From the IMG/VR virus record IMGVR_UViG_3300047160_036266, positions 279,422 through 343,421 of that record: a stretch of DNA of 64,000 nt. One strand, written 5' to 3'. The notes below the pieces were generated by a model. It ran no database searches. It was not told the DNA's origin and saw only the letters and a program-made list of their open reading frames with translations. Made by a program: the position numbers and the translations under genes. Each line of letters begins with the position of its first letter. Within the stretch, counting starts at the first letter, position 1. The stretch is from a virus (Duplodnaviria; Caudoviricetes). This document shows positions 419 to 43,386 of this stretch, piece after piece.

Positions 419-1381
419 TTAACTGAGTGTGATAGGCCATTTTTGGAACATTCTTTCAAGACCGTTGGCCAGGATGTCCGGCGTCAGTTCGGTTAGACAC
501 GGCTTGAGTACGTCCTTGCACTTGGGGCATTGCGGCCACGCAAAGCAGGGACCACAATCCCAATTGCCATCGTCCCGGTGCTTCTGGACCAGCACGAAAT
601 CGTAATATTTGCCGTAAACCTTGCCGTCAATAAAGGTGAAAATACCCGTCAGCGGCTTCTTCAAACCGCCGGCGCAATGGAAGGTGGACGTATCCACGCT
701 TACCACATAGTCGGCACAGTCAATAACGGCCATCCACTGCTTGTGACCTATATTCCAGATGGTCGAGAAGGGCTTGAGATCGTAGAGCGGACTGTTGTGG
801 AGGCCAACAACGAAGCAGCCTTTTTGGTGGAGGTATTTGGCAACCATCATCATTTGCTGCTTGCTCAAGTTCTTCCCAGCTTGGGCGGAAACGGGTGAGA
901 AGACCACGGTTGGCCCCTTATGCTTGCCTTTAAGCTGCCTGATTTTGTCAATCGCCCAGCGCTTTGCTTCCTGGTCGATGTGCAGGTGCATGTTGTGTTT
1001 GGTAAGAATGACCCCGCAATGGCTGGCCCAGATGTCGCTCCGGTGTTTGTCGGCAAAGGGGGCAACCTGAGCCTCGTAGCGGCCACAGGCCGTAGTGGTG
1101 TTGTAACTAATCAGGTAGTCGTGCAGTCTCACCGTTCGGCAGTTTACTACCTCGTCCACAAAGGGGTGGTTCTCGGAGGCGTGAATATAATCCGGGGGCA
1201 CCGCCCAGACGATCTTGCAACCTGGAAAAACCCGTTTGAAGTCCTCAAACATCATGCGGTGCATCAGGATGTCTCCCAGCCCGCCGCACTCTCGAACAAT
1301 CAACACGGTGTTCCGTTTGTTATAGAAATCGCGTAGGCCCACGGGCGAGGGCGGTTTGGGGTGACGAATCAGCTTGACCAT
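419..1381 (-). CDS. Glycosyltransferase family 9 (heptosyltransferase-like, GT-B fold)
   Basis: N-terminal GGLGDILM and C-terminal VVSVDTSTFHCAGGLKKPLTGIF, matching the GT9 DS/TxxxHxAxAxxxP motif. Confidence 0.85.
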   Translation of the reverse strand: MVKLIRHPKPPSPVGLRDFYNKRNTVLIVRECGGLGDILMHRMMFEDFKRVFPGCKIVWAVPPDYIHASENHPFVDEVVNCRTVRLHDYLISYNTTTACGRYEAQVAPFADKHRSDIWASHCGVILTKHNMHLHIDQEAKRWAIDKIRQLKGKHKGPTVVFSPVSAQAGKNLSKQQMMMVAKYLHQKGCFVVGLHNSPLYDLKPFSTIWNIGHKQWMAVIDCADYVVSVDTSTFHCAGGLKKPLTGIFTFIDGKVYGKYYDFVLVQKHRDDGNWDCGPCFAWPQCPKCKDVLKPCLTELTPDILANGLERMFQKWPITLS

Positions 1382-1386
1382 GCTAT

Positions 1387-1419
1387 AAAAGAGAAGCAGC
1401 CCGGAAATATCCGGGCTGC
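1387..1419 (-). terminator. Rho-independent terminator
   Basis: 10-bp stem GCAGCCCGGA/TCCGGGCTGC with a 4-nt loop, followed by TTCTCTTTT on the minus strand, just after the 1448-2065 gene. Confidence 0.75.
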
Positions 1420-1447
1420 CGGTAGCAAGTTCTGCATGAAGAACTCG

Positions 1448-2065
1448 TTAGCTGTTGCACATGGAGGTCACGGAGGCGAGTACCGACACCGATACGGTGG
1501 TGGCACCGGAAGTGCTGTTGTCGAACTCCAGCTTGCTGACCGTCAAATCGCCAGCGTTGAAGACCTGAGTTACCAGGCCACCTAACGTGAATACCGCATT
1601 GGTATTGCCGTTGAGGCGAACCTTGACGCCGTTCGCGCTGTTGTTGGTCAACTGGACGAACGAGGCCGGGTTGCCATACGTTCCAACGAAGTCGATGACG
1701 TTGGCCGGGGTGCTGTAGCTCGTGCCGCCGACAACATTCAGGTTTTGGGCAACCGGGAAGTTGTTTTCCGGGGCGAAGTCAGAGTAAACGCTACCGTCAT
1801 CCGTTACCACATTGATGAAAGCCTGGTCCAGAGGAACCTGCGGATAGGCAAACCGCTTCCAATAGTTGCAGTCCGTGAAGGTCTGGCCGTCACGGAGCTT
1901 GCGCCAGGTCCGGTTGGGTCCGGTGACATAAATCGTGCGCTGAATCGACGGGTTCATCTGCACGCCCAACTGATCGACGCTCGATGGCACTATTGCCTGC
2001 GTGGTCGGGTTAATGTCCATATAACCCTGGTAGGGGTTGTTCAAAGCCACTTGAAATACGCTCAT
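1448..2065 (-). CDS. Probable virion structural protein (205 aa, Asn/Thr/Val-rich, beta-type)
   Basis: Clean ORF with GGAG RBS; composition resembles the neighbouring virion proteins. Confidence 0.6.
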   Translation of the reverse strand: MSVFQVALNNPYQGYMDINPTTQAIVPSSVDQLGVQMNPSIQRTIYVTGPNRTWRKLRDGQTFTDCNYWKRFAYPQVPLDQAFINVVTDDGSVYSDFAPENNFPVAQNLNVVGGTSYSTPANVIDFVGTYGNPASFVQLTNNSANGVKVRLNGNTNAVFTLGGLVTQVFNAGDLTVSKLEFDNSTSGATTVSVSVLASVTSMCNS

Positions 2066-2109
2066 TGTTCTCCTTGAGTGTGATTCCCTGTCCTGGTCTT
2101 CGGGTGTAT

Positions 2110-2724
2110 CTATGCAGGAAGTTCCAAAACTTCCGCCCTTTCAAACATATTTTGGTACAATTTGGTCCCTAGTCCGGTTGGCACCAGGGCTGTTTGGATA
2201 CCCCTCGCCGCCGCAGCGAACAGAAACTCGTTCTCCACGCCGATGACCCAAGCCGCTCCCTGAAAATTATTGCCAACCTCGACTTCCAGGCCCTCGTCCC
2301 TGGCCAGATGGCGGCAGCGGTCGATCTGTTGTGCAGTCAATGATTTGGTTGGGATGACCCCTTCGGGGCTAATGAGGCAATAGTCGCCTGGGGGCGGCTC
2401 CGGGACACTAATGGAGAGTGGGATTTGCGACTCTTCCATAAGGACTTCGACGGGATGGGATTGCAGGTCGCAGGTGAGGTTGCGGATGTAGGCGAAGTTC
2501 AACTCGTTTTCGCGCAGTTGGCTGTAGGTTAGAACATTGGGATGGCCGTCGAGCAGGTGAAAGACTTCATCCATGCACGCTATATAAACCTGAATGCCCG
2601 GCAACTCTTTCTCGATGTTGGGACGGAGCAGCAATAGTTGAACGAGATATTCGTTTGACCTGCCGAAATAACCAATGCAGTAACGGTCTTTGATCTTCGC
2701 ATAATGCGGTAGGACTACAGCCAT
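2110..2724 (-). CDS. Degenerate GT9-like glycosyltransferase-fold protein
   Basis: Start moved to 2724 (GGAG RBS). LISPEGVIPTKSLTAQQI and AWVIGVENEFLFAAAARGIQTALV align by eye to VFSPVSAQAGKNLSKQQM and DYVVSVDTSTFHCAGGLKKPLTGI of 419-1381. Confidence 0.5.
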   Translation of the reverse strand: MAVVLPHYAKIKDRYCIGYFGRSNEYLVQLLLLRPNIEKELPGIQVYIACMDEVFHLLDGHPNVLTYSQLRENELNFAYIRNLTCDLQSHPVEVLMEESQIPLSISVPEPPPGDYCLISPEGVIPTKSLTAQQIDRCRHLARDEGLEVEVGNNFQGAAWVIGVENEFLFAAAARGIQTALVPTGLGTKLYQNMFERAEVLELPA

Positions 2725-2846
2725 GAACACTCCAGACCACGAGAAAGCCAAATTGGGGGCCGACGCCCTCCATGAATTCTTCAATCAGTTCGGGCCACCC
2801 GACGTTTATAACAGAGTCCTTCTGGAAGAGGTTTTCAGGACGCTTT

Positions 2847-3197
2847 ATGGCAAAGATATATCTGTACCTGGCCCGCAGGGACAAAAAGGGCCTGAAGTTG
2901 GTCAGTGTGCTAGAAGGCCCGCTGACAGCCCCGGTTCGGTTAATGGATGTGAAGCTGCTCAACCTGCCCGGCAACATGGAGCAGGAGATTTCCCGCATCG
3001 TCCATGAAAACCGCATGTATTGGGAGCCGTGGTTGGAAAGTGCCGAGTCTTTTGAAGCTTTGAAAAAGGCAGTACGCAGTCGTGGCTATAGACAGGTGCC
3101 GGCCCACGGCAATCCGTTGTATATGGGTGATAGGTTCAGGAAGCAGGCAACAGTCCCGCCATCTAAACCCGTGCCGTCGATGCTGAGAAGGATTTGA
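2847..3197 (+). CDS. Hypothetical protein (116 aa)
   Basis: Start moved to MAKIYLY (AGGA upstream); fills the gap between two minus-strand genes. Confidence 0.7.
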   Translation: MAKIYLYLARRDKKGLKLVSVLEGPLTAPVRLMDVKLLNLPGNMEQEISRIVHENRMYWEPWLESAESFEALKKAVRSRGYRQVPAHGNPLYMGDRFRKQATVPPSKPVPSMLRRI

Positions 3198-3494
3198 TTA
3201 CAGACCGCCCTTACGCACGAAGAGCCTGGAAATGATAAACCGACCTGCATTAACCTCGATGAGCAACGCCTGCCCGTCCATTTCAACTAGAGTTCCGCCG
3301 TCGCGCTTGAACTCCTTAGCTATCTCGTAAAGCTCGCCTTCCTGGGGTTCGATCTTTTCCAAGAGTTTTTTCAAGCTGATCTTGGATTCGACTTGTGTTC
3401 CCACTTGGTTCCTGCGGGCCTCATGCTCGCTTTGGCTTTCCATCCACTTCTTGAACTCGTTGAGTGAAAAGGATGGTTCTCGGTGTTTAGCCAT
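3198..3494 (-). CDS. Hypothetical protein (98 aa)
   Basis: Start at MAKHREP with a GAGG RBS and an upstream TATATA box. Confidence 0.7.
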   Translation of the reverse strand: MAKHREPSFSLNEFKKWMESQSEHEARRNQVGTQVESKISLKKLLEKIEPQEGELYEIAKEFKRDGGTLVEMDGQALLIEVNAGRFIISRLFVRKGGL

Positions 3495-4326
3495 TTTTGT
3501 CCTCAAAGAAAGTCACAATTTCTTCTGGCCTTATATATGGCGCGTTCTCATATTCTAAACCCGCTGAAGAACTTCTTATCTTGATTTCTTGATCCGAAGT
3601 CTTCAGCCAGTACATACACCCGTCGATGAATCCCTGGCCGATTCGCTGCTGAGGATATTGCCACAAGCCGTTGGGTAGTTGCTCGGCACCGGGCCGCTCC
3701 TCGCTAAATGAATCATCACAGCAGGCCAGAAGGAGTTTCCGAAGGTTGAAACGATAGGCAATACAAATGGCGGCACAGATGGGGTTGCGATAATCGTCAA
3801 TCTGGTATTCTACTTCGTTCCCCTTTGTCCCAGAGTACCGCTCGTCACCCACGGGAAGGTAGCGGTACTTTATGCCACGGTAGCGTTGTAGAAACTCGTG
3901 ATTTGTGCGCACCGACGCTATGCAGCGAGGAAATATGCGGGGCATGAAGTGCAAGCACTCCGGGTAGGGATTGTTGACAACATAATATGCTGGAACCCTG
4001 GCTTCCTGCCATTTCTTGAGGGCGGCATTTACGGCTATGATCGTTACCGATTTGTCCAAGCGTCCAAGTACCTTTTGCACGGCGTTGAAGTGATGGCCGT
4101 CCGACACGATGACGACTTTATCATGACGGAATGTTTCTCTGTCCACCCAAGGGTTCCGGCTCCGGTTGTTAATTGTTTCATTTTGCAATAGGACCGGGTA
4201 ATCTTGTTGCCTGGTCAGATTGTTGATGTCAACGTAAGGCACCAGATGCTTGGTGAAGTTCCTGACCCACATACCTGTAGGCGTCAGCAGGTACTCGTTC
4301 TTGTTGCTGTGTTTCTTGATTATCAT
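3487..4326 (-). CDS. Maf/DUF115 (MptE-like) domain protein, putative glycosyltransferase
   Basis: VVIVSDG, IIAVNAAL, YYVVNNP and NPICAAICIAYRFNLRKLLLACCDDSF follow the DUF115 pattern (hhhGxG, hhAVN, AhxhAxxhGxxxhxLhGxD). Start moved to 4326, 1 nt after the upstream stop. Confidence 0.6.
   Translation of the reverse strand: MIIKKHSNKNEYLLTPTGMWVRNFTKHLVPYVDINNLTRQQDYPVLLQNETINNRSRNPWVDRETFRHDKVVIVSDGHHFNAVQKVLGRLDKSVTIIAVNAALKKWQEARVPAYYVVNNPYPECLHFMPRIFPRCIASVRTNHEFLQRYRGIKYRYLPVGDERYSGTKGNEVEYQIDDYRNPICAAICIAYRFNLRKLLLACCDDSFSEERPGAEQLPNGLWQYPQQRIGQGFIDGCMYWLKTSDQEIKIRSSSAGLEYENAPYIRPEEIVTFFEDKNG
3532..3537 (-). promoter_or_regulatory. Candidate late-promoter TATATA box
   Basis: 37 nt upstream of the 3494 start. 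Confidence 0.4.
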
Positions 4327-4327
4327 G

Positions 4328-7300
4328 TTACTTCTTTGGGCATGGCACGATGGCAACGCAGGCGGGGCCATCCTCGCTGTCTTCCCCTGTCAGCTTCGAT
4401 ACGTCCAGTTGAATCTTCACGTCTATCGGTGCGCCCTTGTAGACCAATTCGACCTCCGGCTTCTCAGGCATCACCAATTGGATGATCGAGGGCACGCTGC
4501 CGATCAACTCGATAACACTTGGCACGCCGGCCACCTGGATAACGTCGGGAATGCCAGAGGCATCCAGGGTGATAACTGTCGGCAGTTCCCTCGGCATCTC
4601 GATGGTTATTACAGTAGGCAGGTTGCCAGAGTCCACCACAATCCGGCTGGGGATGTCCGTCGCCACCACTTCGATGGACTGCGGCAGGTCGTGCTTCAGT
4701 TTGATCTCAGTCGGGATTGGTTCCTTCATCTCGACCTGGATATTTGGAATCTTGGGGGTATCCACCTGGATCATTACCGGAATGTCATGGATCACCCGTA
4801 TGTCTGGTATATGCGGCATGACGATATGGATTTCAGATGGAATACCCAGGCTCTCGGCCACTGCTGTCATAGGAATGCCGCCGAAGCTGTCTTGGAAGTC
4901 CTCGCCAAGCTGGGTGGCCCCGACCATTGAGGCGGCGCTAGGACATTGCACCGTGACAATGCAGGAGATCGTCGGCATTGGTGTTGGGAACGTCACCGAT
5001 ATTGTTGGGGCGTCAGCAAAGCTGATAATTGTCGGTACGGTGGCCGGAGCGAAGGTAATGCTCGTGGGGATGGATACGGGCGTAATCGTGATCTCAGTCG
5101 GCACCGTCACCGGAGCAAAACTGATATACGTCGGCAGTGTCACCGGCGTAAAGGCGATGGTCGTTGCAAAGGTTACGGGCGTTATCTTGATCTCAGTCGG
5201 CACCGTCACTGGAGCAAAGCTGATGTAGGTCGGCACCGTCACCGGAGCAAAGCTGATGTAGCTTGGCAGTGTCACCGGGGCGAAGCTTATGTAGGTCGGT
5301 AGCGTCACCGGCGTAAAGGCGATGGTTGTTGCAAAAGTTACGGGCGTTATCTTGATCTCAGTCGGCACCGTCACCGGAGCAAAACTGATATACGTCGGCA
5401 CCGTCACTGGAGTAAAGCTGATGTAGCTTGGCAGTTCCACCGGGGTAAAGGCGATGGTTGTTGCAAAAGTTACGGGCGTTATCTTGATCTCGGTCGGGAA
5501 TGAGACGGGCGTAATCTTGATCTCGGTCGGCACCGTCACCGGGGCGAAGCTGATATAGGTCGGCACTGTCACCGGCGTAAAGCTGATGTAGCTCGGCAGT
5601 TCCACCGGCGCGAAGCTTATGGCGGTCGGGAACGATACTGGTGTTATCTTGATCTCGGTCGGGAAGGAGACGGGCGTTATCTTGATCTCACTCGGCACTG
5701 TCACCGGGGCGAAGCTGATGATGCTGGCTACTGTCACCGGGGCAAAGCTGATATATGTTGGAACGTCTACCGGGGCGAAACTAATGGCAGTCGGGAACGA
5801 TACCGGGGAAATCTTGATCTCGGTCGGGAACGACACCGGCGATACCTTGATCTCGGTCGGGAACGACACGGGGGTTATCTTGATTTCGGTCGGCACCGTT
5901 ACCGGCGCGAAGCTGATGGTACTCGGCACCGTCACCGGCGCGAAACTGATGGTACTTGGAAACTCTACCGGGGCAAAGCTAATGGCGGTCGGGAACGATA
6001 CCGGCGAAATCTTGATTTCAGTCGGGAACGACACGGGCGTAATCTTGATCTCAGTCGGCACCGTCACCGGCGCAAAGCTGATGTAGCTGGGAACCTCCAC
6101 CGGGGCGAAGCTAATGGTACTCGGCACCGTTATTGGCGCGAAGCTGATGGTACTTGGGAATTCCACCGGGGCGAAGCTGATGGCGGTCGGGAATGATACC
6201 GGGGAAATCTTGATTTCAGTCGGGAACGAGACGGGTGTAATCTTTATCTCGGTCGGCACCGTCACCGGCGCGAAGCTGATGTAAGTAGGAACCTCCACCG
6301 GGGCAAAGCTGATGATACTCGGCACCGTAACTGGCGCAAAGCTGATGTAACTCGGCAATTCTATCGGTGCAAAACTGATGGCGGTCGGGAACGATACCGG
6401 GGATACCTTGATTTCGGTCGGGAACGAAACAGGTGTAATCTTGATCTCGGTCGGCACTGTCACCGGCGCAAAGCTGATGTACGTCGGCACTGTCACCGGA
6501 GCGAAACTGATATACGTCGGCACATCCACCGGCGCGAAGCTAATGGCGGTCGGGAACGAGACGGGCGTAATTCTGATCTCGGTCGGGAACGAGACGGGCG
6601 TAATCTTGATCTCGGTCGGGAACGAGACGGGCGCAATCGTAATCTGAGTTGGGACCGTCACCGGGGCGAAGCTAATGTATGTCGGCACCGTTATCGGTGT
6701 GAAACTAATAACGGACGGCACACACATGGGGGTGAAACTGATGATAGTCGGTATTGCGGGAGGCGCAATTTCGATTATCGGAGGAATGTCCACCGGCGTG
6801 ATGAATATAAACGTCGGAATGTATACCGGCGTAATGCTAATGAACGTCGGGAAGGTTATCGGCGTAAACTCAATCAACGACGGAAAATCAATTGGCCCGA
6901 AAACGATGATGGTCGGTATGTCAATTGGCCCAAAGTTGATGATGGTCGGTATCGTTACGGGGCCGAAGTCGATGATCGACGGTATATCAATCGGCCCGAA
7001 ATCAATCACCGATGGGATCGAAATGTCAATGGGTCCGATGTCGATGGCGGACGGCACTACGATGTCAATGATTGACGGAATGCTGACAGGCCCGAACTCA
7101 ATCAAGCTGGGAATCTCAATCGGCGGCTCGACCACGATGACCGATGGTATGACAATTGGCCCGATGGGGCTGATGTCCAGGCACGGCAACACTATGGGCG
7201 GCGGGATGATTGGGACCGAAGGTACGGCCACGCTTGGGAATACCAGCGGCGGGATGGTCGGGCATTCGGGAATCGGGATTTCAAAGGGCTGTTCTACCGG

Positions 7301-8041: not shown

Positions 8042-8059
8042 AGTAACCCCTCTTTTCCT

Positions 8060-8065
8060 TATATA
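8060..8065 (-). promoter_or_regulatory. Candidate late-promoter TATATA box
   Basis: Intergenic, 18 nt upstream of the 8041 start. Confidence 0.5.
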
Positions 8066-8083
8066 CCTCTCGCAGCAACAGCT

Positions 8084-10372
8084 TTAGAAAATCCCCATCT
8101 GCCATTGCGTTCCATCGGGCCTGGACCCCAGCGCCGAAAAGGTCGTGTCCACGTCACTGAACTTGATAAAGGCGTTGGTGCTGTAGTCAAAGCTGAGGTA
8201 GGCTTTGTGGTCGCCATCGGACGTTGCAACCAGGGTGTTGGCTTGGTTGTCGTAGCCGATTACACTGGCATCTTGCAGCACTCGGAAGGATGAAGAGTTA
8301 AGGCTCGTATTGTTCGTCTCCCAAACCCCGCTGGCGTCGTTGTAGGCTGACACCGCACCCGAATTGTTGAAGAAGTACAGTCCTGAATTCAGTGGCACCA
8401 GTCGCCCCTCGATTTTCACCAAACCCGCCATGTCCGGCAACTTCCGAATATTGACCGCCTCCACCGTGCCTACAGGTTCGCTGCGGTAGAAGCTGCGCAA
8501 CTTGAAGAAATCACCCACATTGTCGTTGCGCACGAAATATCCGCTCGCTCCCTTCCAAGCGGAACGATAAACACTCATGTTCCCATCAAGAGGATTACCG
8601 CTGCCGTCATATTGAGCGGGATTTTGCATCAGGTCCGTCGCTCCGTTCAGATAGTTGCTTGTATAGATGGGGGTGTTTGTGTTGGCCTCTGTGATGAGGT
8701 TCGTAGTGTCCATCGTTTGGTTGGTGGGCGAACTGTTGGGGGCAATGGAGCCGGTTACGCCGCCCAGCAAAAAGTGGACGTTGTTGGGTGAGGCCAAGGC
8801 CACCCAATTCCAGGGTCGGTTGATGGTCAAGCGGCGTGTGTAGATGTCGCTGAAACCCTCGTATTCCAAGAACTCGATCCGTTCACTGGACGGTGGGGCC
8901 GTTACGGAACGCCCGCTGGCCCAATAAACAAGGCAAGAACCGCCGTCACCAGATAAGGTGGAGCCACGAGGCGTAAAGCCGTTGTTATGAGTGAACTCGT
9001 ACAGTTGTTGTACGGCGTTTCTGTCGCCGGTGGGCAAGAAGCTGGAATCGTAACTGATCTGGAAAGCAGCCCCCTGTTTCGCCTTGAAAGTTTCACTGAT
9101 GAGGCCGTACTCACGGGATTGAATATTCTGGGTGGCGTCGATGGTCCAATGCCACATATTTAGTTGCTCGATGATGTCGAAGGCGCTGGGCCACTTGGTA
9201 ATCCGGTAGGCCCCAAACTTCGTGTCCACCCGCAAAATTAGGTCGTATATTCCGCCAATGCCGTAAGAGGCCGTGGTCGTCGGAGAGTTCGTGTGTAGCA
9301 GGTCGTCGCCTGCCGCCCAGGTGTAGTGGGTCACTGGATCAATGGGGTTGTTGTACCCGTCGAGCAGTTCGCCAGCGAAAGATCGGCCCGTGTTCGGGTT
9401 TACTCCTGGCGGAACCTCGGCCTGAATGATGCTCCCGGTGACGGCGCGAATGACAGGGGGTGTGACATAAGGACCGCCAATGGGCACGCCAGGGGTGACG
9501 ATCTGCCCGGTGTAGGGTGCGAACTCGAATACCGCCTCGTCAGGGGCGGCAATGCGAGAATTTATCATCCCCGGCATTACCACTGTGTCGGAGCCGAACT
9601 TGTTGGTAACTGTCAGTGTCACGTCGAAGATGCCCGGCTCGTTATAAGTCTTGGTAATGGGACCGCCGCCAATATCAAATACCAGCACGTTGCTCATGTT
9701 TGGCGGCACCGCTGAAATAACCGAGATGATGGAGATAATGCTGCCGGTGTTGTCACCGAAATCCCATTCGATGGTTACGGGATCGTTTACGCTGTCGGTG
9801 GCCAGGCGAAAGCTCTGATTGGTGAAGATAACCGTCATAGGCACCAGGCCAACGGTTTTGTCGGTGGTAAACCAAGCCCTCGGCACCAGCACTAACTTGC
9901 GCAGGAAGTTGATTCTGCCCTCCAGGGTGGGGCCGAAGGGCCGGTCGTCAATGGTGCCCTGGATGCCAATGAAATCCTCGATGGCAATAACGGCATTCTT
10001 GAGGTTGTTGTGGTGATCGGCCATGACGTTCATGGTTACGTCGGTAATGTATTTCGGCTTGGGGCAATCGGTAAAACATGGCAGCAATTCCACGTCATTA
10101 AAGCTCATGGTCACGTTGTCGCTGGCGAGCGTGCGACTGTTGTAGAAAAATGACAAGGCACGCAGGGCCGGGTCGCTACACTGCTCGGTCAGCGTAATCT
10201 GTCCGGTGGCCGGGAACGTGAAGAACATATTCTGGTCCCCAGAGACGTAGATCACCTTGTCTCCGGCGCTGTAATCTTCCGCCAACTTCATGCGCAGGGA
10301 GTCATGCACCAAATAGAGGTTGGTGATGGTGTCAAAAGCTTCCGGGTAGTTGCTGGCTGTTGGAATTGTCAT
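8084..10372 (-). CDS. PKD-domain virion protein (762 aa)
   Basis: IEWDFGDN...KTYNEPGIFDVTLTVTNKFG is a PKD signature; N-domain shared with its neighbours. Confidence 0.8.
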   Translation of the reverse strand: MTIPTASNYPEAFDTITNLYLVHDSLRMKLAEDYSAGDKVIYVSGDQNMFFTFPATGQITLTEQCSDPALRALSFFYNSRTLASDNVTMSFNDVELLPCFTDCPKPKYITDVTMNVMADHHNNLKNAVIAIEDFIGIQGTIDDRPFGPTLEGRINFLRKLVLVPRAWFTTDKTVGLVPMTVIFTNQSFRLATDSVNDPVTIEWDFGDNTGSIISIISVISAVPPNMSNVLVFDIGGGPITKTYNEPGIFDVTLTVTNKFGSDTVVMPGMINSRIAAPDEAVFEFAPYTGQIVTPGVPIGGPYVTPPVIRAVTGSIIQAEVPPGVNPNTGRSFAGELLDGYNNPIDPVTHYTWAAGDDLLHTNSPTTTASYGIGGIYDLILRVDTKFGAYRITKWPSAFDIIEQLNMWHWTIDATQNIQSREYGLISETFKAKQGAAFQISYDSSFLPTGDRNAVQQLYEFTHNNGFTPRGSTLSGDGGSCLVYWASGRSVTAPPSSERIEFLEYEGFSDIYTRRLTINRPWNWVALASPNNVHFLLGGVTGSIAPNSSPTNQTMDTTNLITEANTNTPIYTSNYLNGATDLMQNPAQYDGSGNPLDGNMSVYRSAWKGASGYFVRNDNVGDFFKLRSFYRSEPVGTVEAVNIRKLPDMAGLVKIEGRLVPLNSGLYFFNNSGAVSAYNDASGVWETNNTSLNSSSFRVLQDASVIGYDNQANTLVATSDGDHKAYLSFDYSTNAFIKFSDVDTTFSALGSRPDGTQWQMGIF

Positions 10373-11382
10373 TAAAACACCGTAATCTTTTCTGTTAGGA
10401 ACGCCCGCTTGAGTGCCTGGTTGGCAAATACAATCAGAAGCGAGGGCGAGTAATTGCCTGCCTTCTGGTAAACGTGAGTGGCCGTGTGGTTGTTCGGGTC
10501 TTCTACGGTCATGCTATCCCCGTCATCGAATATCCAGTAACGCTGGGAGATGTTGCCGTCCGTCTGGTCCACGAAGTTAAAGGTCGTCGGCTGCCCGCCC
10601 AGCGAATTGGCCCGCTGCGCCGAGTCTCCCTGGATGGGCGAGACGTAGAAGAACGGGGCCTTGGCGTCATTGCTAACCGTGATATAATTGCTTTTGGTGG
10701 CAATCCCTAATGCCGCTGTCTGCGTAATCAAGTTCATGCTGACGGTGAACGCCCCCTCGGTTAAGTAGGTGTGGATCGGGTTCGTTTCTATCGAGGTCGT
10801 ACCGTCGCCAAAGTCCCACAGGTAACGAACCTCGCCCCGGTTGCTGAAGTTCTGAAAACGAACCCGCAACGGCGGTGGCCCAGACAGCGGGTAAGCGCGA
10901 AACAGGGGTTTCGGGGCCAAAAAGGTCGTTTCCAGTTGCTTGAGGATGCCATTCAGGGAAGCCGCATTGGGGAAATCCTGAACCCCCAGGTTTACCTCGA
11001 TCTGTTGCACGGCGTCCTTGACGGCGTTGTGGGCTTCGGCCATGACCCCACTCGTGACCGCTGTGCCGCTAGGCCAGGTAGTTTGCCTGGAGCCGGCAAA
11101 ACCACGAATGAGTGTCTGGAATTGCGTTGGGGTCGTATTGCCGTAGTAAATCAACTCCGCATCGCCCGTGGCGCTCGGTCCCACTCGCAACAGCCCTGTA
11201 TCGGGGAAGGAAGTGGTATCCTCCACAATGAGATACTTGCCGTTATAAGCAAGGCTCTGCCTGAGAACGGTTTCAGAAAGGTTCTTGGCGACGTACAACT
11301 GTGAGGGGTTGTCCCTTGCCAATGGATATAAGGATAACAACCCCGTCCGGTATCCTGGGTCCAGGGAGGATATTCTACTCAT
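10372..11382 (-). CDS. Two-PKD-domain virion protein (336 aa)
   Basis: YLWDFGDGTTSIETNPIHTY and YWIFDDGDS...ATHVYQKAGNYSPSL. Confidence 0.85.
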   Translation of the reverse strand: MSRISSLDPGYRTGLLSLYPLARDNPSQLYVAKNLSETVLRQSLAYNGKYLIVEDTTSFPDTGLLRVGPSATGDAELIYYGNTTPTQFQTLIRGFAGSRQTTWPSGTAVTSGVMAEAHNAVKDAVQQIEVNLGVQDFPNAASLNGILKQLETTFLAPKPLFRAYPLSGPPPLRVRFQNFSNRGEVRYLWDFGDGTTSIETNPIHTYLTEGAFTVSMNLITQTAALGIATKSNYITVSNDAKAPFFYVSPIQGDSAQRANSLGGQPTTFNFVDQTDGNISQRYWIFDDGDSMTVEDPNNHTATHVYQKAGNYSPSLLIVFANQALKRAFLTEKITVF

Positions 11383-12052
11383 CTAACTCCTTGTGCTTCA
11401 GCATTTCCAGCTTCGCCTTTTGGCCGTCCAATATATGTATCGCCTCCTGCTTAATTGGTGCGTCATTATTAAGGGCCAGGACCGTTTTCATAAGTTCAGT
11501 GTCAATAGGATGTTGCATCAACATCCGCATGTGGATGTCCTGCGTGAGCCGGGCGTTCCAATATTCCTTCTGCGCCCCCAGATCGTCGTAGGGGCGAGGC
11601 GGTTCTATTTCCGCCAGGGCCTCGAAGGCTTGCACGAAGAACCGGGCCTCCTCCTCGGTGTTTTTCAGCCGCTCCCGCAATTGTGCCATTGCCTCTAATA
11701 CGCCAGTCCGCTGGCGTTTGACCCGCCGGACCTTAATTTCGGTTTCTTTAACGTCGAGTTCTTGCGATTGCCGCTCGGCAATGGCGGTGGAGAGGGGTTC
11801 TTGCAACTTGAGGTTGAGGCGGGCTTCCTCTATATCTAGCAGGGCGAGCTTGTCATTTGTGTCCTCAAGCTCCAAAAATATGGCTTTTATCGACTCCCGG
11901 CGCATTTTCAATTCCCGGAGACACTGCCAGAGCTTGCTTTGGTGGGTTGGCTCCTTGCCGATGATAAAGTATTTCATCTGGAAGTAACTGTGGCGGCTGG
12001 CCACGTCGTTTTTCAAAAGAGCGTCCATTTTCGTCAGTAAATCGCTTGACAT
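11375..12052 (-). CDS. Coiled-coil protein, possibly a fibre-assembly chaperone
   Basis: Heptad-like Leu/Glu/Lys-rich core, directly upstream of the fibre-like genes; function is inferred only. Confidence 0.55.
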   Translation of the reverse strand: MSSDLLTKMDALLKNDVASRHSYFQMKYFIIGKEPTHQSKLWQCLRELKMRRESIKAIFLELEDTNDKLALLDIEEARLNLKLQEPLSTAIAERQSQELDVKETEIKVRRVKRQRTGVLEAMAQLRERLKNTEEEARFFVQAFEALAEIEPPRPYDDLGAQKEYWNARLTQDIHMRMLMQHPIDTELMKTVLALNNDAPIKQEAIHILDGQKAKLEMLKHKELDE

Positions 12053-12110
12053 TGGGTTCTCCTTCCGGGAAAATAAGCTGGTATTTTATTAGAGTCGCAC
12101 GGAGGCATTT

Positions 12111-12626
12111 ATGGGCGTCCTACGAGGCAAGCGGTGTTATTTGTCAGGGCCGATCCAGTACGACGATACCGGGCACAACTGGCGGGAAGGCCCACGCAAG
12201 GTGCTGGTCGAGGAATTTGGCATCGACCTGTTCGATCCCTTTGAAGACCCCAAACAGCAGTGGGTGCCTATGCTCATGGATGCGCAAGTGCGCAAGGACT
12301 ACGACACGATGCAGCGGATTTCCCGCCAGTTCGTGCGCAAGGACTTGTGCATGGTGGACCGGAGCGACTTCATCATCTCCTACCTGCCGTTTAAGATGCC
12401 CACTACCGGCACCCACCACGAGATCATCAACTCGGTGAATGCGAAAAAGCCCACCCTCCTGGTCTGCCCGCAGGGGAAGGAATTTGTGCCGTTGTGGTAC
12501 TACGGCTTCATCCCCCACGAGGTCATGTTCGGAAGCTGGGACGAGGTTTATCGTTATTTGCGGGATGTCGAGGCCATGAAGCACACCGAGAATAATCGGT
12601 GGGCTTATGTTTATGGATTGGTGTAA
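12111..12626 (+). CDS. Nucleoside 2-deoxyribosyltransferase / nucleotide N-hydrolase family
   Basis: YLSGPI, DLCMVDRSDFII and GTHHEI motifs. Confidence 0.85.
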   Translation: MGVLRGKRCYLSGPIQYDDTGHNWREGPRKVLVEEFGIDLFDPFEDPKQQWVPMLMDAQVRKDYDTMQRISRQFVRKDLCMVDRSDFIISYLPFKMPTTGTHHEIINSVNAKKPTLLVCPQGKEFVPLWYYGFIPHEVMFGSWDEVYRYLRDVEAMKHTENNRWAYVYGLV

Positions 12627-12627
12627 A

Positions 12628-12882
12628 ATGAAACGCGACGAATGGATACGAGAACGGGCTTATCATCTGTGGCAGCAGCAGGGTTGTCCAGACAAGCGTG
12701 ACCTGGACTTCTGGCTGGCTGCCGAACGCGAATATACCGCCGATCACATCTGTATTATGTCGCTGGGCCACTGCGATCACCAGATTTCCCACCCGACTGT
12801 GGCGGGCGGTCATGTGGCCATTTGTGACGAAACAACGGACTGTTGCAACCTGGCTCGCCACTATCTGCCTGGCGTTCACTAA
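12628..12882 (+). CDS. DUF2934-domain protein with a Cys/His-rich tail
   Basis: IRERAYHLWQQQGCPDKRDLDFWLAAERE. Confidence 0.85.
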   Translation: MKRDEWIRERAYHLWQQQGCPDKRDLDFWLAAEREYTADHICIMSLGHCDHQISHPTVAGGHVAICDETTDCCNLARHYLPGVH

Positions 12883-13463
12883 CAGATTTTCGCGCCGGCG
12901 ATGGCCTTGAACCGACAACCCTTTTCAATAGCCGCCATCGACCAGAAGAGCTTGCACAGTTCGAGGGGGTTCTTGTCGGCCATGTCTCCGACCAGCTTGA
13001 AGGTATTGCGGTGCATGAGGATGCCGTTGAGCGTCCCCTCGTAGAAGATATATTTGCCCTCGGCAATAGGGAAGAGGATGTCGGTGTCTTTTTCCACGAA
13101 GAGGGAGTATTTCTTGTCAAGGTTGGGGCGGACGTAGCTGCCCGCTATTACCAGCATATTCCAGTCAGCCTTGGCGTGCTTCATGCCGACGTTGATGAGG
13201 GAAGTGATCGTGTCTTTCCCTTCGTAGGTTTCACACTGCTTTTTTAACGCTTTCACGTCATCGGCGTGCATGGAGTCGCTTACCGTCACGATCATAGGGG
13301 CGGCGGGATAGTTCCTTTGCAGGTTGGCTATCGTGGAGCGAACGTGGCCCAGATTGTTGTCCGCACAGAGGACGACAAAACCGATTTGCAGCGGTTTATA
13401 GTGATAAAGCTTTGACTGCCCGTTAGCTGAGGGCGATGTCAAAGTCGATTCGGATGGTGTCAT
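12879..13463 (-). CDS. GT-A-fold-like protein lacking a clear DxD motif (start uncertain)
   Basis: IGFVVLC...SLINVGMKHAKADWNMLV resembles the GT2 segment NxGxxxAxxDW. Confidence 0.4.
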   Translation of the reverse strand: MTPSESTLTSPSANGQSKLYHYKPLQIGFVVLCADNNLGHVRSTIANLQRNYPAAPMIVTVSDSMHADDVKALKKQCETYEGKDTITSLINVGMKHAKADWNMLVIAGSYVRPNLDKKYSLFVEKDTDILFPIAEGKYIFYEGTLNGILMHRNTFKLVGDMADKNPLELCKLFWSMAAIEKGCRFKAIAGAKIC

Positions 13464-14196
13464 TTAACGTAATCGCATTCTGTAGGATAAAGCCCAGGTG
13501 ATCCACAGTCGGCGTAAACTGGTTCAAGGTCCAGGGGGCCGATATGTTGGCACTTGGGACGTAAACCGGCCCAGAGCTACTTAACCTGACTCCATTGATA
13601 AACACTCGCAAGCTGCCATCCATATACTGCGTCGGCAAACCCGTCGTGTAGTTCTGATAATTAGTGCTGACGGGCGAAACGTCATAATAGTGCCGATGGA
13701 TTGCGTCCACGGGGAACGCCAGTTGTGCCGAAACCTTATTCGGTGGCGTCACGACCCAGGTGATGGCCCACGACGGTTCAAGGACAATCGGCCCTTGATT
13801 GAACATGACGATGTTTGAGATCGTCTGCACGTCTATGGTCATGTTGGTCGCTTCATCATTGACCAACGCGAGTTTGTCCCGCTCGGCCTGCTGCATTCGG
13901 ACATAAGCAACGCTGTCCGGCCCAATGCCGTCCGTATGATAGCCGATATTGTGCAGGCAGTTATCAACTGCCGCTGGCTTGAGTGACCCGTCGCCGTTCA
14001 GCGACATGCCCAAGCGCTGCGCCAGCGTTGATTGCGTGCCTACCGAGTTTTGGATGTCGTTTTGAACGATGTCCACGGCGTCGTTGACAACCCCAATGCG
14101 GGTGATTAAAGCGTGCAACGGCAGGTTGTCGAAATCAACGTGGTACGGTTGAAGGGCATTATAAAGCGGTACAGGTATCAGGTCAAGTTCAGGCAC
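13423..14196 (-). CDS. Virion structural protein (257 aa)
   Basis: C-terminal GSLRVFINGVRL...TIRIDF beta module typical of phage structural proteins; GGAGG RBS. Confidence 0.65.
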   Translation of the reverse strand: MPELDLIPVPLYNALQPYHVDFDNLPLHALITRIGVVNDAVDIVQNDIQNSVGTQSTLAQRLGMSLNGDGSLKPAAVDNCLHNIGYHTDGIGPDSVAYVRMQQAERDKLALVNDEATNMTIDVQTISNIVMFNQGPIVLEPSWAITWVVTPPNKVSAQLAFPVDAIHRHYYDVSPVSTNYQNYTTGLPTQYMDGSLRVFINGVRLSSSGPVYVPSANISAPWTLNQFTPTVDHLGFILQNAITLNDTIRIDFDIALS

Positions 14197-14720: not shown

Positions 14721-15025
14721 TACTCCTCGCTCTCTGCCAGGCGTGGTCCGCCGTGGTCGATCATACCGGCCTGGATGCCGTCGTATATTTCTTCCAGAGT
14801 GTATTCGGCACCGACGAACTCGTTGAAGCTATTTACAAAATGCGCCATGATGTCGCCGTGGACTGCCTTCCTCAAATGGGGGTTCTGGTTACAGTAAATA
14901 ACGGCGCTCCGCAAGGAATCTTCTTCTATCAGGTAGTCAAATAGCTGATCGTCAACAAATAGCGCGTTGATTTCCTTGCCGCACTCCTCGTTGTGAACCC
15001 GCCGGATTTCTATTTTCTTAGACAA
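14720..15025 (-). CDS. Hypothetical protein (101 aa)
   Basis: In the operon; its stop overlaps the SET start (TAATG). Confidence 0.7.
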   Translation of the reverse strand: MSKKIEIRRVHNEECGKEINALFVDDQLFDYLIEEDSLRSAVIYCNQNPHLRKAVHGDIMAHFVNSFNEFVGAEYTLEEIYDGIQAGMIDHGGPRLAESEE

Positions 15026-18631: not shown

Positions 18632-18638
18632 GTCTTCC

Positions 18639-38443: not shown

Positions 38444-38447
38444 GAAC

Positions 38448-38453
38448 TATATA
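38448..38453. promoter_or_regulatory. Candidate late-promoter TATATA box at a divergent junction
   Basis: 4 nt upstream of the 38443 start; palindromic. Confidence 0.5.
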
Positions 38454-43379: not shown

Positions 43380-43386
43380 AACAGTC

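What the first reader, a model, noticed from the sequence alone, without database searches (positions are those of the whole stretch)
419..13463. Possible virion-protein glycosylation system next to a mucin/extensin-like fibre
Seen: GT9 (419-1381), degenerate GT9 (2110-2724), Maf/DUF115-like (3487-4326, 1 nt after the repeat-protein stop) and GT-A-like (12879-13463) genes bracket the Pro/Thr/Ser-repeat and PKD genes. Another GT9 (40591), an FkbM methyltransferase (44285) and a GT95/96-like gene (57675) lie elsewhere in the window. No nucleotide-sugar synthesis genes are visible. Established: Maf proteins O-glycosylate flagellin Ser/Thr, and FkbM-type enzymes often O-methylate glycans. Inference: the phage glycosylates its own fibres or capsid (shielding or adhesion) rather than DNA or LPS.
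Basis: inference. Interest (0 to 1): 0.7.

Follow-up and report, generated by a model that had tools for sequence, protein, structure and literature searches.

The report
Maf-type glycosylation genes beside phage fibre
An uncultured giant soil phage, and at least 80 relatives, keep a flagellin-glycosyltransferase-like (Maf-fold) gene directly behind a hypervariable Pro-Thr/Ser repeat tail-fibre gene, with heptosyltransferase-like genes alongside, so the phage probably sugar-coats its own fibre, although no glycan has been seen.

Summary
The observation largely holds. ORF 419-1381 is a GT9 heptosyltransferase homologue that keeps both WaaC acidic residues. ORF 3487-4326 has the Maf fold (Z 21.2 to Maf of Magnetospirillum, against 14.4 for MptE kinase). 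ORF 12879-13463 has a GT-A fold but no DxD motif. ORF 2110-2724 is a shortened GT9-like paralogue with moderate support. The distal GT9 (40591) and GT95-like (57675) genes fall below thresholds.

The repeat protein is not mucin-like. It has about 60 hydrophobic 11-residue P-[ST] units between conserved ends.

In 80 related IMG/VR loci the gene order fibre, Maf-like, 102-aa protein, GT9-like, 205-aa protein, GT9 is conserved on one strand within a baseplate and tail-fibre operon. The fibre sits next to Maf in 76 of 78 loci.

"No sugar-nucleotide genes" is true only for the window. The same genome encodes HldE-like and HldD-like ADP-heptose enzymes and an FkbM-TPR-GT9 fusion. Some relatives encode KdsB or a NeuA-like enzyme.

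The best reading (about 0.5) is late, cytoplasmic O-glycosylation of the fibre. Host LPS remodelling and non-catalytic roles remain open. This scan had already noted the same module on this genome and on another genome.

The parts
419..1381 (-). GT9a: a WaaC-like heptosyltransferase homologue (320 aa). It keeps the equivalents of WaaC D13 and D261 (D37 and D230, both invariant in the family). It also has an invariant C-terminal four-Cys cluster (C276, C279, C285, C295).
   Evidence: Pfam PF01075 29.4 bits. Alignment to WaaC. NCBIfam TIGR02193 E 6e-12. Family profile against PDB WaaC E 1.6e-6. Conservation. Present within 4.5 kb downstream of Maf in 47 of 71 related loci.
1448..2065 (-). p205: a conserved 205-aa protein of unknown family with a Ser/Thr-rich C-terminus. 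It lies between the two GT9-like genes and is a possible structural protein or second acceptor.
   Evidence: No Pfam or PHROG hit. Present in 70 of 76 related loci at a median 52% identity.
2110..2724 (-). A short (204 aa) GT9-like paralogue. The two acidic positions read Glu (E25 and E164; E164 is invariant).
   Evidence: hhalign A3 against A2: probability 66%, E 5.5e-5, 191 columns. Atlas lead. No Pfam or PDB sequence hit. Present in 57 of 77 loci.
2772..3197 (+). A conserved opposite-strand ORF of unknown function between p102 and the short GT9-like gene. Its start is uncertain.
   Evidence: Homologues in 69 related loci, always on the opposite strand.
3198..3506 (-). p102: a conserved 102-aa protein that overlaps the end of the Maf-like gene by 20 nt. 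It is a candidate accessory or adaptor protein by analogy with GlfM. This is inference only.
   Evidence: Present in 78 of 80 loci. Alignment A5. GlfM precedent: bioRxiv 10.1101/2023.12.03.569772.
3487..4326 (-). Maf-fold (MptE-like/DUF115) protein of 279 aa. It is the candidate O-ulosonyl transferase for the fibre.
   Evidence: More than 612 homologues at about 50% identity. The family has many invariant polar residues (D76, N118, N119, D177, D178, R180, D204).
3531..3537 (-). TATATAA motif about 25 nt upstream of the p102 start. It resembles a late promoter.
   Evidence: TATATAR occurs 14 times against 3.2 expected, and 0 of 100 shuffles reach 14.
4328..8041 (-). Rep: a 1237-aa fibre-like protein. 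It has a conserved N-terminal region with a PKD-like segment, about 60 units of 11 aa each containing P-[ST], and a conserved C-terminal region with looser IP[ST] repeats.
   Evidence: Translation. Homologues P0122 and P0123. Lengths range from 608 to 2049 aa with variable repeats. P[ST] is enriched at z>3 in 27 of 34 homologues. Weak PKD_4 hit.
8059..8065 (-). TATATAA motif 18 nt upstream of the Rep start. It resembles a late promoter and could drive Rep together with the Maf-like gene.
8084..10372 (-). PKD-domain protein (762 aa).
   Evidence: Pfam PKD E 4e-11. Present in 53 of 53 loci with enough flank.
10372..11382 (-). PKD-domain protein (336 aa).
   Evidence: Pfam PKD_4 E 4.5e-18. PHROG baseplate or virion structural hits. 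Present in 49 of 49 loci.
11375..12052 (-). p225: a conserved protein of unknown function (phrog_1409).
   Evidence: Present in 45 of 47 loci.
12879..13463 (-). GT-A-fold protein (194 aa) without a DxD motif. The position after beta-4 reads A107-G108-S109. It could be a metal-independent transferase or a pseudoenzyme.
   Evidence: AF2 pLDDT 93.6. Foldseek top hit E 1e-8, TMq up to 0.72. Sequence and conservation. Present in 32 of 41 loci.
13423..14196 (-). p257: a conserved protein of unknown function in the operon.
   Evidence: Found in 32 loci. No family hit.
15018..20655 (-). The tail and baseplate genes that set the context. They comprise a tail-collar fibre N-terminal domain protein (15018-15497), a P2 gpI-like tail protein (15494-18631), a gp6-like wedge protein (18639-20198) and a gp25-like wedge protein (20191-20655).
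40591..41520 (-). A weak GT9-like gene that scores below the Pfam cut-off.
   Evidence: PF01075 19.5 bits. TIGR04414 E 0.001. Also flagged.
44285..44887 (+). FkbM-family methyltransferase.
   Evidence: PF05050 25.2 bits, above the 22.7 cut-off.
57675..58544 (+). A conserved 289-aa protein with a sub-threshold HPAT (GT95) match. The family assignment is open.

Best explanation
The region is the distal part of a late baseplate and tail-fibre operon of an uncultured giant T4-like soil phage. A protein O-glycosylation module is built into this operon.

Proposed course of events (all inferred):
1. A late-type promoter (TATATAA, 18 nt upstream) drives the 1237-aa fibre protein Rep and the translationally coupled Maf-fold enzyme.
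2. In the cytoplasm, before or during fibre assembly, the Maf-fold enzyme transfers a CMP-activated ulosonic acid onto the Thr/Ser that follows Pro in each 11-residue repeat. The sugar is most plausibly Kdo drawn from the host pool. In some relatives it may be a sialic-acid-like sugar.
3. The WaaC-like GT9 enzyme (419-1381), and perhaps its short paralogue (2110-2724), extend the glycan with heptose. The ADP-heptose comes from a supply that the phage boosts with its own HldE-like and HldD-like enzymes.
4. FkbM methyltransferases and further GTs elsewhere in the genome may finish the glycan.
5. The small protein p102 may act as an accessory factor.

Shown here: the folds and families, the conserved gene order, and the presence of the sugar-nucleotide genes. 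Inferred: the acceptor, the sugars, the timing and any biological benefit such as shielding, solubility or adhesion.
For: (1) ORF 3487-4326 is structurally closest to Maf. VIA Z is 21.2 over 244 residues for 5mu5, against 14.4 for the MptE kinase, 11.8 for SteA and about 7.5 for sialyltransferases.
(2) The family has more than 612 members at about 50% identity with many invariant Asp, Asn and Arg residues. This pattern suits an enzyme better than a chaperone.
(3) Synteny holds across 80 IMG/VR loci. The Rep C-terminus lies next to Maf in 76 of 78 loci and the Rep N-terminus in 53 of 53. p102 is present in 78 of 80, the GT9-like gene in 57 of 77, GT9 in 47 of 71 and the GT-A-like gene in 32 of 41. 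All are on one strand.
(4) The Rep stop and the Maf start are 1 nt apart.
(5) The neighbouring genes are structural: gp6-like, gp25-like, P2 gpI-like, a tail-collar fibre domain protein and PKD proteins.
(6) The repeats diverge freely between phages but keep P-[ST].
(7) GT9a keeps the equivalents of WaaC D13 and D261.
(8) The genome encodes HldE-like (E 1e-92) and HldD-like (E 1.8e-70) proteins and an FkbM-TPR-GT9 fusion.
(9) Relatives carrying the same module encode KdsB (two records) or a NeuA-like enzyme (one record). These make the CMP-sugars that Maf enzymes use.
(10) Maf enzymes can make Ser/Thr-O-Kdo (abstract of bioRxiv 10.1101/2020.06.03.131540).
(11) The TATATAR motif is enriched and lies just upstream of Rep and of p102.
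Against: - There is no direct evidence of glycans on any virion protein, and no cultured relative. The only GenBank phage hit is the unannotated record LR756511.1.
- By sequence the Maf-like protein is below the Pfam cut-off. It lacks the N- and C-terminal domains of bacterial Mafs.
- The essential Maf aspartate was not mapped at residue level.
- The 343-kb record has no CMP-sugar synthetase and no NeuB.
- Sugar-nucleotide genes are patchy among relatives.
- GT9, HldE, HldD and KdsB are the LPS inner-core toolkit, and GT9a is closer to WaaC than to the protein heptosyltransferases Aah and TibC.
- The GT-A-fold protein has no DxD motif.
- Rep has not been shown to be a virion component.
- Conservation of P-[ST] could be purely structural.
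Confidence: 0.5

Rival explanations
1. Host envelope remodelling. The GT9 enzymes, the HldE-like and HldD-like proteins, and KdsB in relatives act on the host's LPS inner core during infection. Possible purposes are masking receptors against superinfection or stopping progeny from sticking to debris. On this view their place in the tail operon reflects only late timing.
For: - GT9a is closest to LPS heptosyltransferase I.
- HldE, HldD and KdsB are canonical LPS-core enzymes.
- A recent survey classes huge-phage glycosyltransferases, PfkB kinases and epimerases as auxiliary or envelope-associated genes (bioRxiv 10.64898/2026.10.24.761521).
Against: - It does not explain a Maf-fold enzyme, because Maf is known only for protein O-glycosylation.
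- It does not explain the near-obligate coupling of that gene to the fibre gene (76 of 78 loci).
- It does not explain the TPR-GT9 fusion.
- The core of the module is conserved, whereas the sugar-nucleotide genes are patchy.
Confidence: 0.2
2. Non-catalytic roles. The Maf-fold, GT-A-fold and short GT9-like proteins are pseudoenzymes recruited as fibre assembly chaperones or as minor structural components.
For: - The GT-A-fold protein lacks DxD and has few invariant acidic residues.
- The short GT9-like protein has lost about a third of the fold and has no Pfam signal.
- The Maf-like protein is a minimal 279-aa version.
- Fibre genes in T4-like phages are often followed by dedicated chaperones (general knowledge).
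Against: - The Maf-like family keeps many invariant Asp, Asn and Arg residues at 58% mean column identity.
- GT9a keeps both WaaC acidic residues.
- The phage invests in ADP-heptose synthesis.
Confidence: 0.15
3. DNA hypermodification. The transferases decorate modified bases of the phage genome, as in T-even phages.
For: - Phage GTs commonly glycosylate DNA (discussed in PMC12619734).
- A well-conserved nucleoside 2-deoxyribosyltransferase-like gene sits inside the module at 12111-12626.
Against: - None of the folds found (Maf, GT9) is known to act on DNA.
- The genes sit in the tail operon, not with replication genes.
- ADP-heptose and CMP-ulosonates are not known donors for DNA modification (general knowledge).
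Confidence: 0.07
4. ORF 3487-4326 is a pyrophosphokinase of the MptE, thiamin-pyrophosphokinase or SteA type (pterin or another small substrate), not a glycosyltransferase.
For: - The Pfam family PF01973 is named after MptE.
- The HPPK structure 8sd5 scores Z 14.4, SteA 11.8 and thiamin pyrophosphokinase 8.2.
Against: - Maf scores clearly higher (Z 21.2) and covers residues 2-278, against 30-254 for MptE.
- This reading gives no rationale for the coupling to a fibre gene.
Confidence: 0.05

Closest known systems
Maf (motility accessory factor) flagellin nonulosonic-acid O-glycosyltransferases. The solved example is Maf of Magnetospirillum magneticum AMB-1 (PDB 5mu5). The Maf-2/GlfM tripartite type is described in bioRxiv 10.1101/2023.12.03.569772.
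   Same: - Same MAF_flag10/MptE-like fold (Z 21.2).
- A soluble, presumably cytoplasmic enzyme encoded next to the gene for a repetitive, filament-forming, Ser/Thr-bearing structural protein.
- A small conserved gene lies immediately downstream, as glfM lies downstream of maf-2.
- Relatives carry CMP-ulosonate synthetases.
   Different: - Only 279 aa, against 441-822 aa for bacterial Mafs, with no N-terminal Rossmann-like domain and no C-terminal helical or TPR domain.
- 13% identity, and below the Pfam cut-off.
- The putative acceptor is a phage fibre, not flagellin.
- No Pse, Leg or Neu pathway in this genome.
- p102 is not a predicted four-helix bundle.
- Activity is untested.
WaaC/HepI (CAZy GT9), the LPS heptosyltransferase I that adds L,D-heptose to Kdo (PDB 2h1f, 2gt1, 6dfe).
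   Same: - GT9 sequence signature above the Pfam cut-off.
- Equivalents of D13 and D261 are conserved.
- A phage-encoded ADP-heptose supply exists.
   Different: - About 45 bits against the 185-bit equivalog cut-off.
- An extra invariant four-Cys cluster at the C-terminus.
- Encoded in a phage tail operon.
- The acceptor is unknown.
Aah/TibC bacterial autotransporter heptosyltransferases (BAHT; PMC4358343).
   Same: - GT-B heptosyltransferases that hyperglycosylate Ser residues of a repeat-built beta-rich adhesin in the cytoplasm.
- They carry a four-Cys metal finger in the C-lobe that contacts the substrate.
- GT9a also has an invariant four-Cys cluster in its C-terminal part.
   Different: - GT9a has no TIGR04414 match, and ORF 40591 matches it only at E 0.001.
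- No TibC hit in the PDB profile search.
- The Cys spacing differs (C-x2-C-x5-C-x9-C here; Cys-339, 342, 358 and 370 in TibC).
- The N-terminal beta-barrel and the dodecamer were not tested.
Mycobacteriophage virion glycosylation (Freeman et al. 2023, as cited in PMC12619734).
   Same: Phage-encoded glycosyltransferases that modify the phage's own structural proteins.
   Different: - In those phages the glycans sit on the C-termini of the capsid and tail-tube subunits of small siphoviruses of Actinobacteria.
- Here the candidate target is a repeat fibre of a giant T4-like phage, with Maf-fold and GT9 enzymes and heptose or ulosonate chemistry.
- Here nothing has been shown experimentally.

Membership tests
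Maf / MAF_flag10 (PF01973, DUF115, MptE-like) | Sequence match to PF01973 above the gathering score | tested here: inconclusive
   The match is E 0.013, 15.8 bits against a 34.6 cut-off, but it spans profile positions 21-169 of 171. Of the 120 listed homologues, 11 carry a precomputed PF01973 domain. Atlas neighbours are PF01973 clusters.
Maf / MAF_flag10 (PF01973, DUF115, MptE-like) | Fold of the central Maf domain | tested here: met
   The AF2 model has pLDDT 93.5. Against 5mu5, Foldseek gives E 1.7e-7 and TMq 0.62, and VIA gives Z 21.2, rmsd 4.1 and 244 aligned residues (chain 189-515). This is clearly above MptE at Z 14.4.
Maf / MAF_flag10 (PF01973, DUF115, MptE-like) | Three-domain architecture with an acceptor-binding N- or C-terminal (TPR or helical) domain | tested here: not met
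   The protein is 279 aa and aligns only to residues 189-515 of the 632-aa Maf. No longer fused homologues were found (weak evidence).
Maf / MAF_flag10 (PF01973, DUF115, MptE-like) | Essential aspartate of the Maf domain (D247 in Maf-1, D261 in Maf-2 of S. oneidensis) | tested here: inconclusive
   The family has invariant D76, D177, D178 and D204. No residue-level superposition on Maf was available.
Maf / MAF_flag10 (PF01973, DUF115, MptE-like) | CMP-nonulosonate (Pse, Leg or Neu) synthesis genes in cis | tested here: not met
   The 343-kb record (69% complete) has no CTP_transf_3 and no NeuB. Among 16 related records, two have KdsB and one a NeuA-like gene, and none has NeuB.
Maf / MAF_flag10 (PF01973, DUF115, MptE-like) | O-glycosyltransferase activity on Ser/Thr of a protein | not testable with these tools
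   This needs biochemistry.
CAZy GT9 heptosyltransferase (ORF 419-1381) | PF01075 above cut-off and GT9 motifs, including the equivalents of WaaC D13 and D261 | tested here: met
   The score is 29.4 bits against a cut-off of 22. D37 aligns to D13 and D230 to D261 in the alignment to WaaC, and both are invariant in 28 sequences. The family profile hits WaaC at E 1.6e-6.
CAZy GT9 heptosyltransferase (ORF 419-1381) | Availability of the ADP-heptose donor | tested here: met
   An HldE-like protein matches NF008454 at E 1e-92 over its full length. An HldD-like protein matches TIGR02197 at E 1.8e-70. Both are in the same genome, and both score below the equivalog cut-offs. No GmhA was found.
CAZy GT9 heptosyltransferase (ORF 2110-2724) | Homology to GT9 | tested here: inconclusive
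   hhalign to the GT9a family gives probability 66%, E 5.5e-5 over 191 columns. No Pfam hit in 24 members and no PDB hit.
BAHT (Aah/TibC, TIGR04414) | Sequence membership and the four-Cys iron finger | tested here: inconclusive
   ORF 419 has no TIGR04414 hit. ORF 40591 matches it at E 0.001, 18 bits against a 200-bit cut-off. GT9a has an invariant Cys4 cluster, but its spacing differs from that of TibC (PMC4358343).
GT-A / GT2 (ORF 12879-13463) | GT-A fold | tested here: met
   Foldseek finds 326 PDB chains at E <= 1e-3. The top hit is WrtF at E 1e-8, and TMq reaches 0.72 for ppGalNAc-T2.
GT-A / GT2 (ORF 12879-13463) | DxD metal and nucleotide-binding motif | tested here: not met
   The position after beta-4 reads A107-G108-S109, and G108 is 92% conserved. 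None of 28 family members hits any GT Pfam family.
GT95 HPAT (ORF 57675-58544) | PF23452 above cut-off, with a prolyl 4-hydroxylase to make the Hyp acceptor | tested here: inconclusive
   The match is E 0.0018, 18.2 bits against a 23.9 cut-off. None of 68 homologues has a Pfam domain, and there is no PDB hit. The genome has no 2OG-FeII_Oxy_3 gene.

The most novel reading that the evidence does not exclude
Giant soil phages build an LPS-inner-core-like glycan on protein. A minimal Maf-type enzyme puts Kdo, taken from host CMP-Kdo or from phage KdsB in some relatives, onto the Thr/Ser of each fibre repeat. WaaC-like GT9 enzymes then add heptose from phage-boosted ADP-heptose. The result would be a hypervariable tail fibre coated with a Kdo-heptose 'core mimic'. 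This would be the first Maf-type system outside flagella and the first protein-linked Kdo-heptose glycan.
Probability: 0.15. Interest if true: 0.85.

Novelty: new variant of a known kind. Interest (0 to 1): 0.62.

Why it matters
Glycosylation of phage particles has so far been shown only for a few mycobacteriophages. Maf-type O-glycosylation is known only for flagellins.

A conserved Maf-fold and heptosyltransferase module wired into the tail-fibre operon of a large, widespread clade of giant phages (genomes of 370-570 kb; more than 600 homologues in metagenomes) would mean three things:
- Sugar-coating of receptor-binding or whisker fibres is a common strategy of huge phages.
- Many 'auxiliary metabolic' sugar genes of huge phages (PfkB/HldE, epimerases, GTs) would be reassigned to virion building.
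- It would offer a compact 279-aa Maf enzyme with a simple repeat acceptor for glyco-engineering.

The hypothesis can be tested directly in E. coli, which already makes CMP-Kdo and ADP-heptose.

Tried and rejected
- Complex prediction of the Maf-like protein with p102 gave no verdict. It is not used as evidence either way.
- No RNA holder was listed for the region. The runs that hold the stretch are soil metagenome DNA, so co-transcription could not be checked and read laying was not run.
- Megablast of the first 14 kb against GenBank phages found nothing.
- tblastn of the Maf-like protein found one unannotated uncultured 595-kb phage.
- Profile searches against PDB sequences found nothing relevant for the Maf-like family, the short GT9-like family, the GT-A-like family, the Rep N-terminus or the ORF 57675 family.
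- PHROGs has no family for any of the GT-like proteins, Rep, p102 or p205.
- No longer, fused Maf-like forms were found.
- No prolyl hydroxylase is present in the genome, so Hyp-O-glycosylation of the Pro-rich repeats was set aside.
- KdsA and NeuB are absent from the 16 related records, and GmhA (SIS_2) is absent from the genome.
- The 'mucin/extensin-like' description was rejected on composition and on the regular hydrophobic periodicity.
- TibC-type membership was considered for GT9a because of its Cys4 cluster, but sequence does not support it.
- Freeman et al. 2023 (PMC10527164) could not be read. It is cited only through PMC12619734.

Full report
**Context**

The window is the last 64 kb of a 343,421-bp IMG/VR virus record. 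CheckV estimates the record to be 69% complete. A protein identical to ORF 3487-4326 is on record on a 669,797-bp contig. The DNA occurs in soil metagenomes.

Genes from 419 to about 43,957 run on the minus strand. The following genes mark a myovirus baseplate and tail-fibre operon:
- 18639-20198 and 20191-20655 hit T4 gp6-like and gp25-like baseplate wedge PHROGs.
- 15494-18631 carries a P2 gpI tail domain.
- 15018-15497 carries the phage tail-collar fibre N-terminal domain.
- 8084-10372 and 10372-11382 carry PKD domains.

**The four bracketing genes**

*ORF 419-1381.* This is a bona fide GT9 homologue.
- It scores 29.4 bits on PF01075 against a cut-off of 22, and E 6e-12 on TIGR02193.
- A profile of 28 family members hits the WaaC structures at E 1.6e-6.
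- The pairwise alignment to WaaC places D37 on the catalytic D13 and D230 on D261. The roles of those WaaC residues come from my knowledge of WaaC. The TibC paper also treats the equivalent Asp as the catalytic base (PMC4358343).
- Both residues are invariant in the family.
- The family also has an invariant C276-x2-C279-x5-C285-x9-C295 cluster.

*ORF 3487-4326.* By sequence this is marginal (PF01973, E 0.013, but nearly full profile coverage).
- The AF2 model is confident (pLDDT 93.5, pTM 0.92).
- Its best solved match is the Maf glycosyltransferase of M. magneticum, with Foldseek E 1.7e-7 and VIA Z 21.2, rmsd 4.1 and 244 aligned residues.
- The archaeal MptE kinase scores Z 14.4, SteA 11.8, thiamin pyrophosphokinase 8.2 and the GT29/GT42 sialyltransferases about 7.5.

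*ORF 12879-13463.* This has no sequence-family hit, even across 28 homologues.
- It folds confidently (pLDDT 93.6) into a GT-A fold. It matches 326 PDB chains at E <= 1e-3, the top hit is E 1e-8, and TMq reaches 0.72 with polypeptide GalNAc-transferase 2.
- The DxD position reads A-G-S, and the family has few invariant acidic residues. Catalytic competence is therefore doubtful.

*ORF 2110-2724.* This aligns collinearly to the GT9a family by hhalign (probability 66%, E 5.5e-5, 191 columns).
- Glu replaces both key Asp residues.
- No member hits Pfam GT9.
- 'Degenerate GT9' is plausible but not secure.

**The distal genes**

- The FkbM gene at 44285 is confirmed.
- The GT9 at 40591 is below the cut-off.
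- The GT95-like gene at 57675 rests on an HPAT match at E 0.0018, which nothing else corroborates.

**The repeat protein**

The 1237-aa product of 4328-8041 has four parts:
- a conserved N-terminal region of about 290 residues, with a weak PKD-like segment;
- about 60 units of 11 residues, for example PTEIKITPVSF and PTYISFAPVTV;
- a looser IP[ST] repeat;
- a conserved C-terminal region.

The central part is 18% Pro and 25% Ser plus Thr, but also 29% Ile plus Val in alternation. It looks like a beta-rich shaft, not a disordered mucin or extensin.

The 56 full-length homologues range from 608 to 2049 aa. Their repeat sequences are quite different (DDIPTTISVY in L005, NTPKIPTSIHI in L006), but they keep Pro followed by Ser or Thr. 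Overall, 43% of prolines are followed by S or T, and the dipeptide is enriched at z>3 in 27 of 34 distinct homologues. Tandem repetition inflates these z values, and the conservation could be structural.

**Conservation of the module**

The Maf-like protein has more than 612 homologues, mostly at about 50% identity, on metagenomic contigs of up to 640-670 kb.

I fetched 80 IMG/VR loci. They share this order, always on one strand: P2 gpI-like, tail-collar protein, (SET), p257, GT-A-fold, p225, PKD, PKD, Rep, Maf-like, p102, short GT9-like, p205, GT9a.

Counts among loci with enough flank:

| Gene | Loci with the gene / loci with enough flank |
|---|---|
| Rep C-terminus next to Maf | 76 / 78 |
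| Rep N-terminus | 53 / 53 |
| p102 | 78 / 80 |
| p205 | 70 / 76 |
| short GT9-like | 57 / 77 |
| GT9a | 47 / 71 |
| GT-A-fold | 32 / 41 |

So Rep, Maf-like and p102 form the invariant core, and the other GT-like genes are frequent companions.

Other points on gene organisation:
- The Rep stop and the Maf start are 1 nt apart.
- p102 overlaps the Maf 3' end by 20 nt.
- A TATATAR motif is enriched in the window (14 occurrences against 3.2 expected; no shuffle reaches 14). It lies 18 nt upstream of Rep and about 25 nt upstream of p102. This resembles T4-type late promoters, which is inference.

**Sugar-nucleotide supply**

The genome, however, encodes several relevant genes outside it:
- an HldE-like bifunctional heptose kinase/adenylyltransferase (E 1e-92, full length), adjacent to a 760-aa GT9-containing protein and a GT2;
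- an HldD-like ADP-heptose 6-epimerase (E 1.8e-70);
- a 735-aa FkbM-TPR-GT9 fusion;
- three FkbM genes and five GT2 matches in all.

No CMP-sugar synthetase, NeuB or GmhA is present in this incomplete record.

Among 16 related records that carry the Rep-Maf module:
- GT9 occurs in 12 records, and in 5 of the 5 that are at least 98% complete.
- HldE-like genes occur in 6.
- HldD-like genes at E<1e-60 occur in 4.
- KdsB (CMP-Kdo synthetase, above an NCBIfam subfamily cut-off) occurs in 2.
- A NeuA-like CMP-sialate synthetase occurs in 1.
- KdsA and NeuB occur in none.

The clade thus repeatedly acquires exactly the activating enzymes for heptose and for CMP-ulosonic acids. The latter is the donor class of Maf enzymes.

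**Mechanism proposed**

Maf enzymes O-glycosylate Ser/Thr of flagellin in the cytoplasm with CMP-activated nonulosonic acids, and they can also install Kdo (PMC11339370; bioRxiv 10.1101/2020.06.03.131540). Maf-2-type enzymes lack an acceptor-binding domain and use a small protein, GlfM, encoded just downstream (bioRxiv 10.1101/2023.12.03.569772).

The phage arrangement (repetitive structural protein, minimal Maf, small conserved protein) parallels this. I therefore propose the following, all inferred:
1. The Maf-fold enzyme modifies the Thr/Ser of the fibre repeats during late gene expression.
2. The donor is most plausibly host CMP-Kdo, since most relatives encode no CMP-sugar pathway.
3. WaaC-like GT9a then adds heptose. 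WaaC's natural acceptor is Kdo.
4. Further GTs and FkbM methyltransferases elaborate the glycan.

Only the folds, families, gene order and presence of the pathway genes are shown. The acceptor, sugars and timing are inferred. I put about 0.5 on 'glycosylates the phage's own fibre or virion proteins' and about 0.15 on the specific Kdo-heptose chemistry.

**Rivals**

- Host LPS inner-core remodelling (0.2) fits GT9, HldE, HldD and KdsB. It does not fit the Maf fold, the coupling to the fibre gene or the TPR fusion.
- Pseudoenzymes or chaperones (0.15) fit the DxD-less GT-A protein and the truncated GT9-like protein. They fit less well the highly conserved polar residues of the Maf-like family and the intact catalytic residues of GT9a.
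- DNA glycosylation (0.07) and an MptE-type kinase (0.05) have little support.

**Comparison and novelty**

The closest known systems are Maf/GlfM flagellin glycosylation, WaaC, the Aah/TibC autotransporter heptosyltransferases and mycobacteriophage virion glycosylation.

The phage protein shares the Maf fold but fails the architecture test and the in-cis donor-pathway test. I describe it as working like a Maf, not as a member of the flagellar Maf family.

The papers held here do not describe this module:
- A huge-phage survey lists glycosyltransferases, PfkB kinases and epimerases only as auxiliary or envelope genes.
- The moraphage paper mentions GTs only generically.

Earlier notes of this scan had already flagged the dispersed glycosylation kit of this genome, and the same Maf-after-fibre arrangement in another genome. 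This report adds:
- the structural confirmation;
- the 80-locus synteny statistics;
- the absence of DxD in the GT-A protein;
- the KdsB and NeuA-like genes in relatives;
- the Kdo-heptose hypothesis.

**Verdict**

This is a real, conserved and previously uncharacterised variant of protein glycosylation machinery embedded in a giant-phage tail-fibre operon. The function is plausible but unproven.

Noticed in passing
window 12111-12626 (+): A nucleoside 2-deoxyribosyltransferase-like gene (PF05014, E 2e-6, just under the cut-off) lies on the opposite strand inside the tail operon, between the GT-A-fold gene and p225. It is conserved at 64-71% identity in 35 related loci, always on the opposite strand.
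   Followed up: partly
window 2772-3197 (+): A second conserved opposite-strand ORF of unknown function lies between p102 and the short GT9-like gene. It is present in 69 related loci.
   Followed up: partly
window 14205-14720 (-): An intact SET-domain methyltransferase (Pfam 44.6 bits) sits among the tail genes. It is found at this position in only 3 of the 80 related loci, so here it is an accessory insertion.
   Followed up: partly
window 8059-8065, 3531-3537, 14233-14239, 38447-38453, 43386-43392 (-): A TATATAR motif is enriched (14 occurrences against 3.2 expected) and usually lies 5-40 nt upstream of minus-strand start codons. It is a candidate late-promoter element of this phage.
   Followed up: partly
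G000:C1:33687-38205 (L008:5687-10205): An HldE-like gene, a 760-aa protein with a C-terminal GT9 domain and an unassigned 560-aa N-terminal part, and a GT2 gene are adjacent on one strand. Together they form a probable ADP-heptose module outside the window.
   Followed up: partly
G000:C1:223258-225465 (L010:4258-6465): A single 735-aa protein fuses an FkbM methyltransferase, TPR repeats and a GT9-like domain. This architecture suggests a protein-directed glycosyl- and methyltransferase.
   Followed up: partly
window 25404-37868 (-): A single 4154-aa ORF lies in the structural region of the window. It was not analysed.
   Followed up: no
L090:10805-13330 (-), a related phage record: An 841-aa protein with intein N-terminal splicing region and RtcB-related intein hits lies next to the KdsB gene of a related giant phage.
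   Followed up: no
L077:13307-14038 (-), a related phage record: An RmlA-like glucose-1-phosphate thymidylyltransferase (E 2.5e-59) lies about 3 kb downstream of the Maf-like gene. This locus lacks p102 and p205, so the sugar-nucleotide cargo near the module varies between phages.
   Followed up: no
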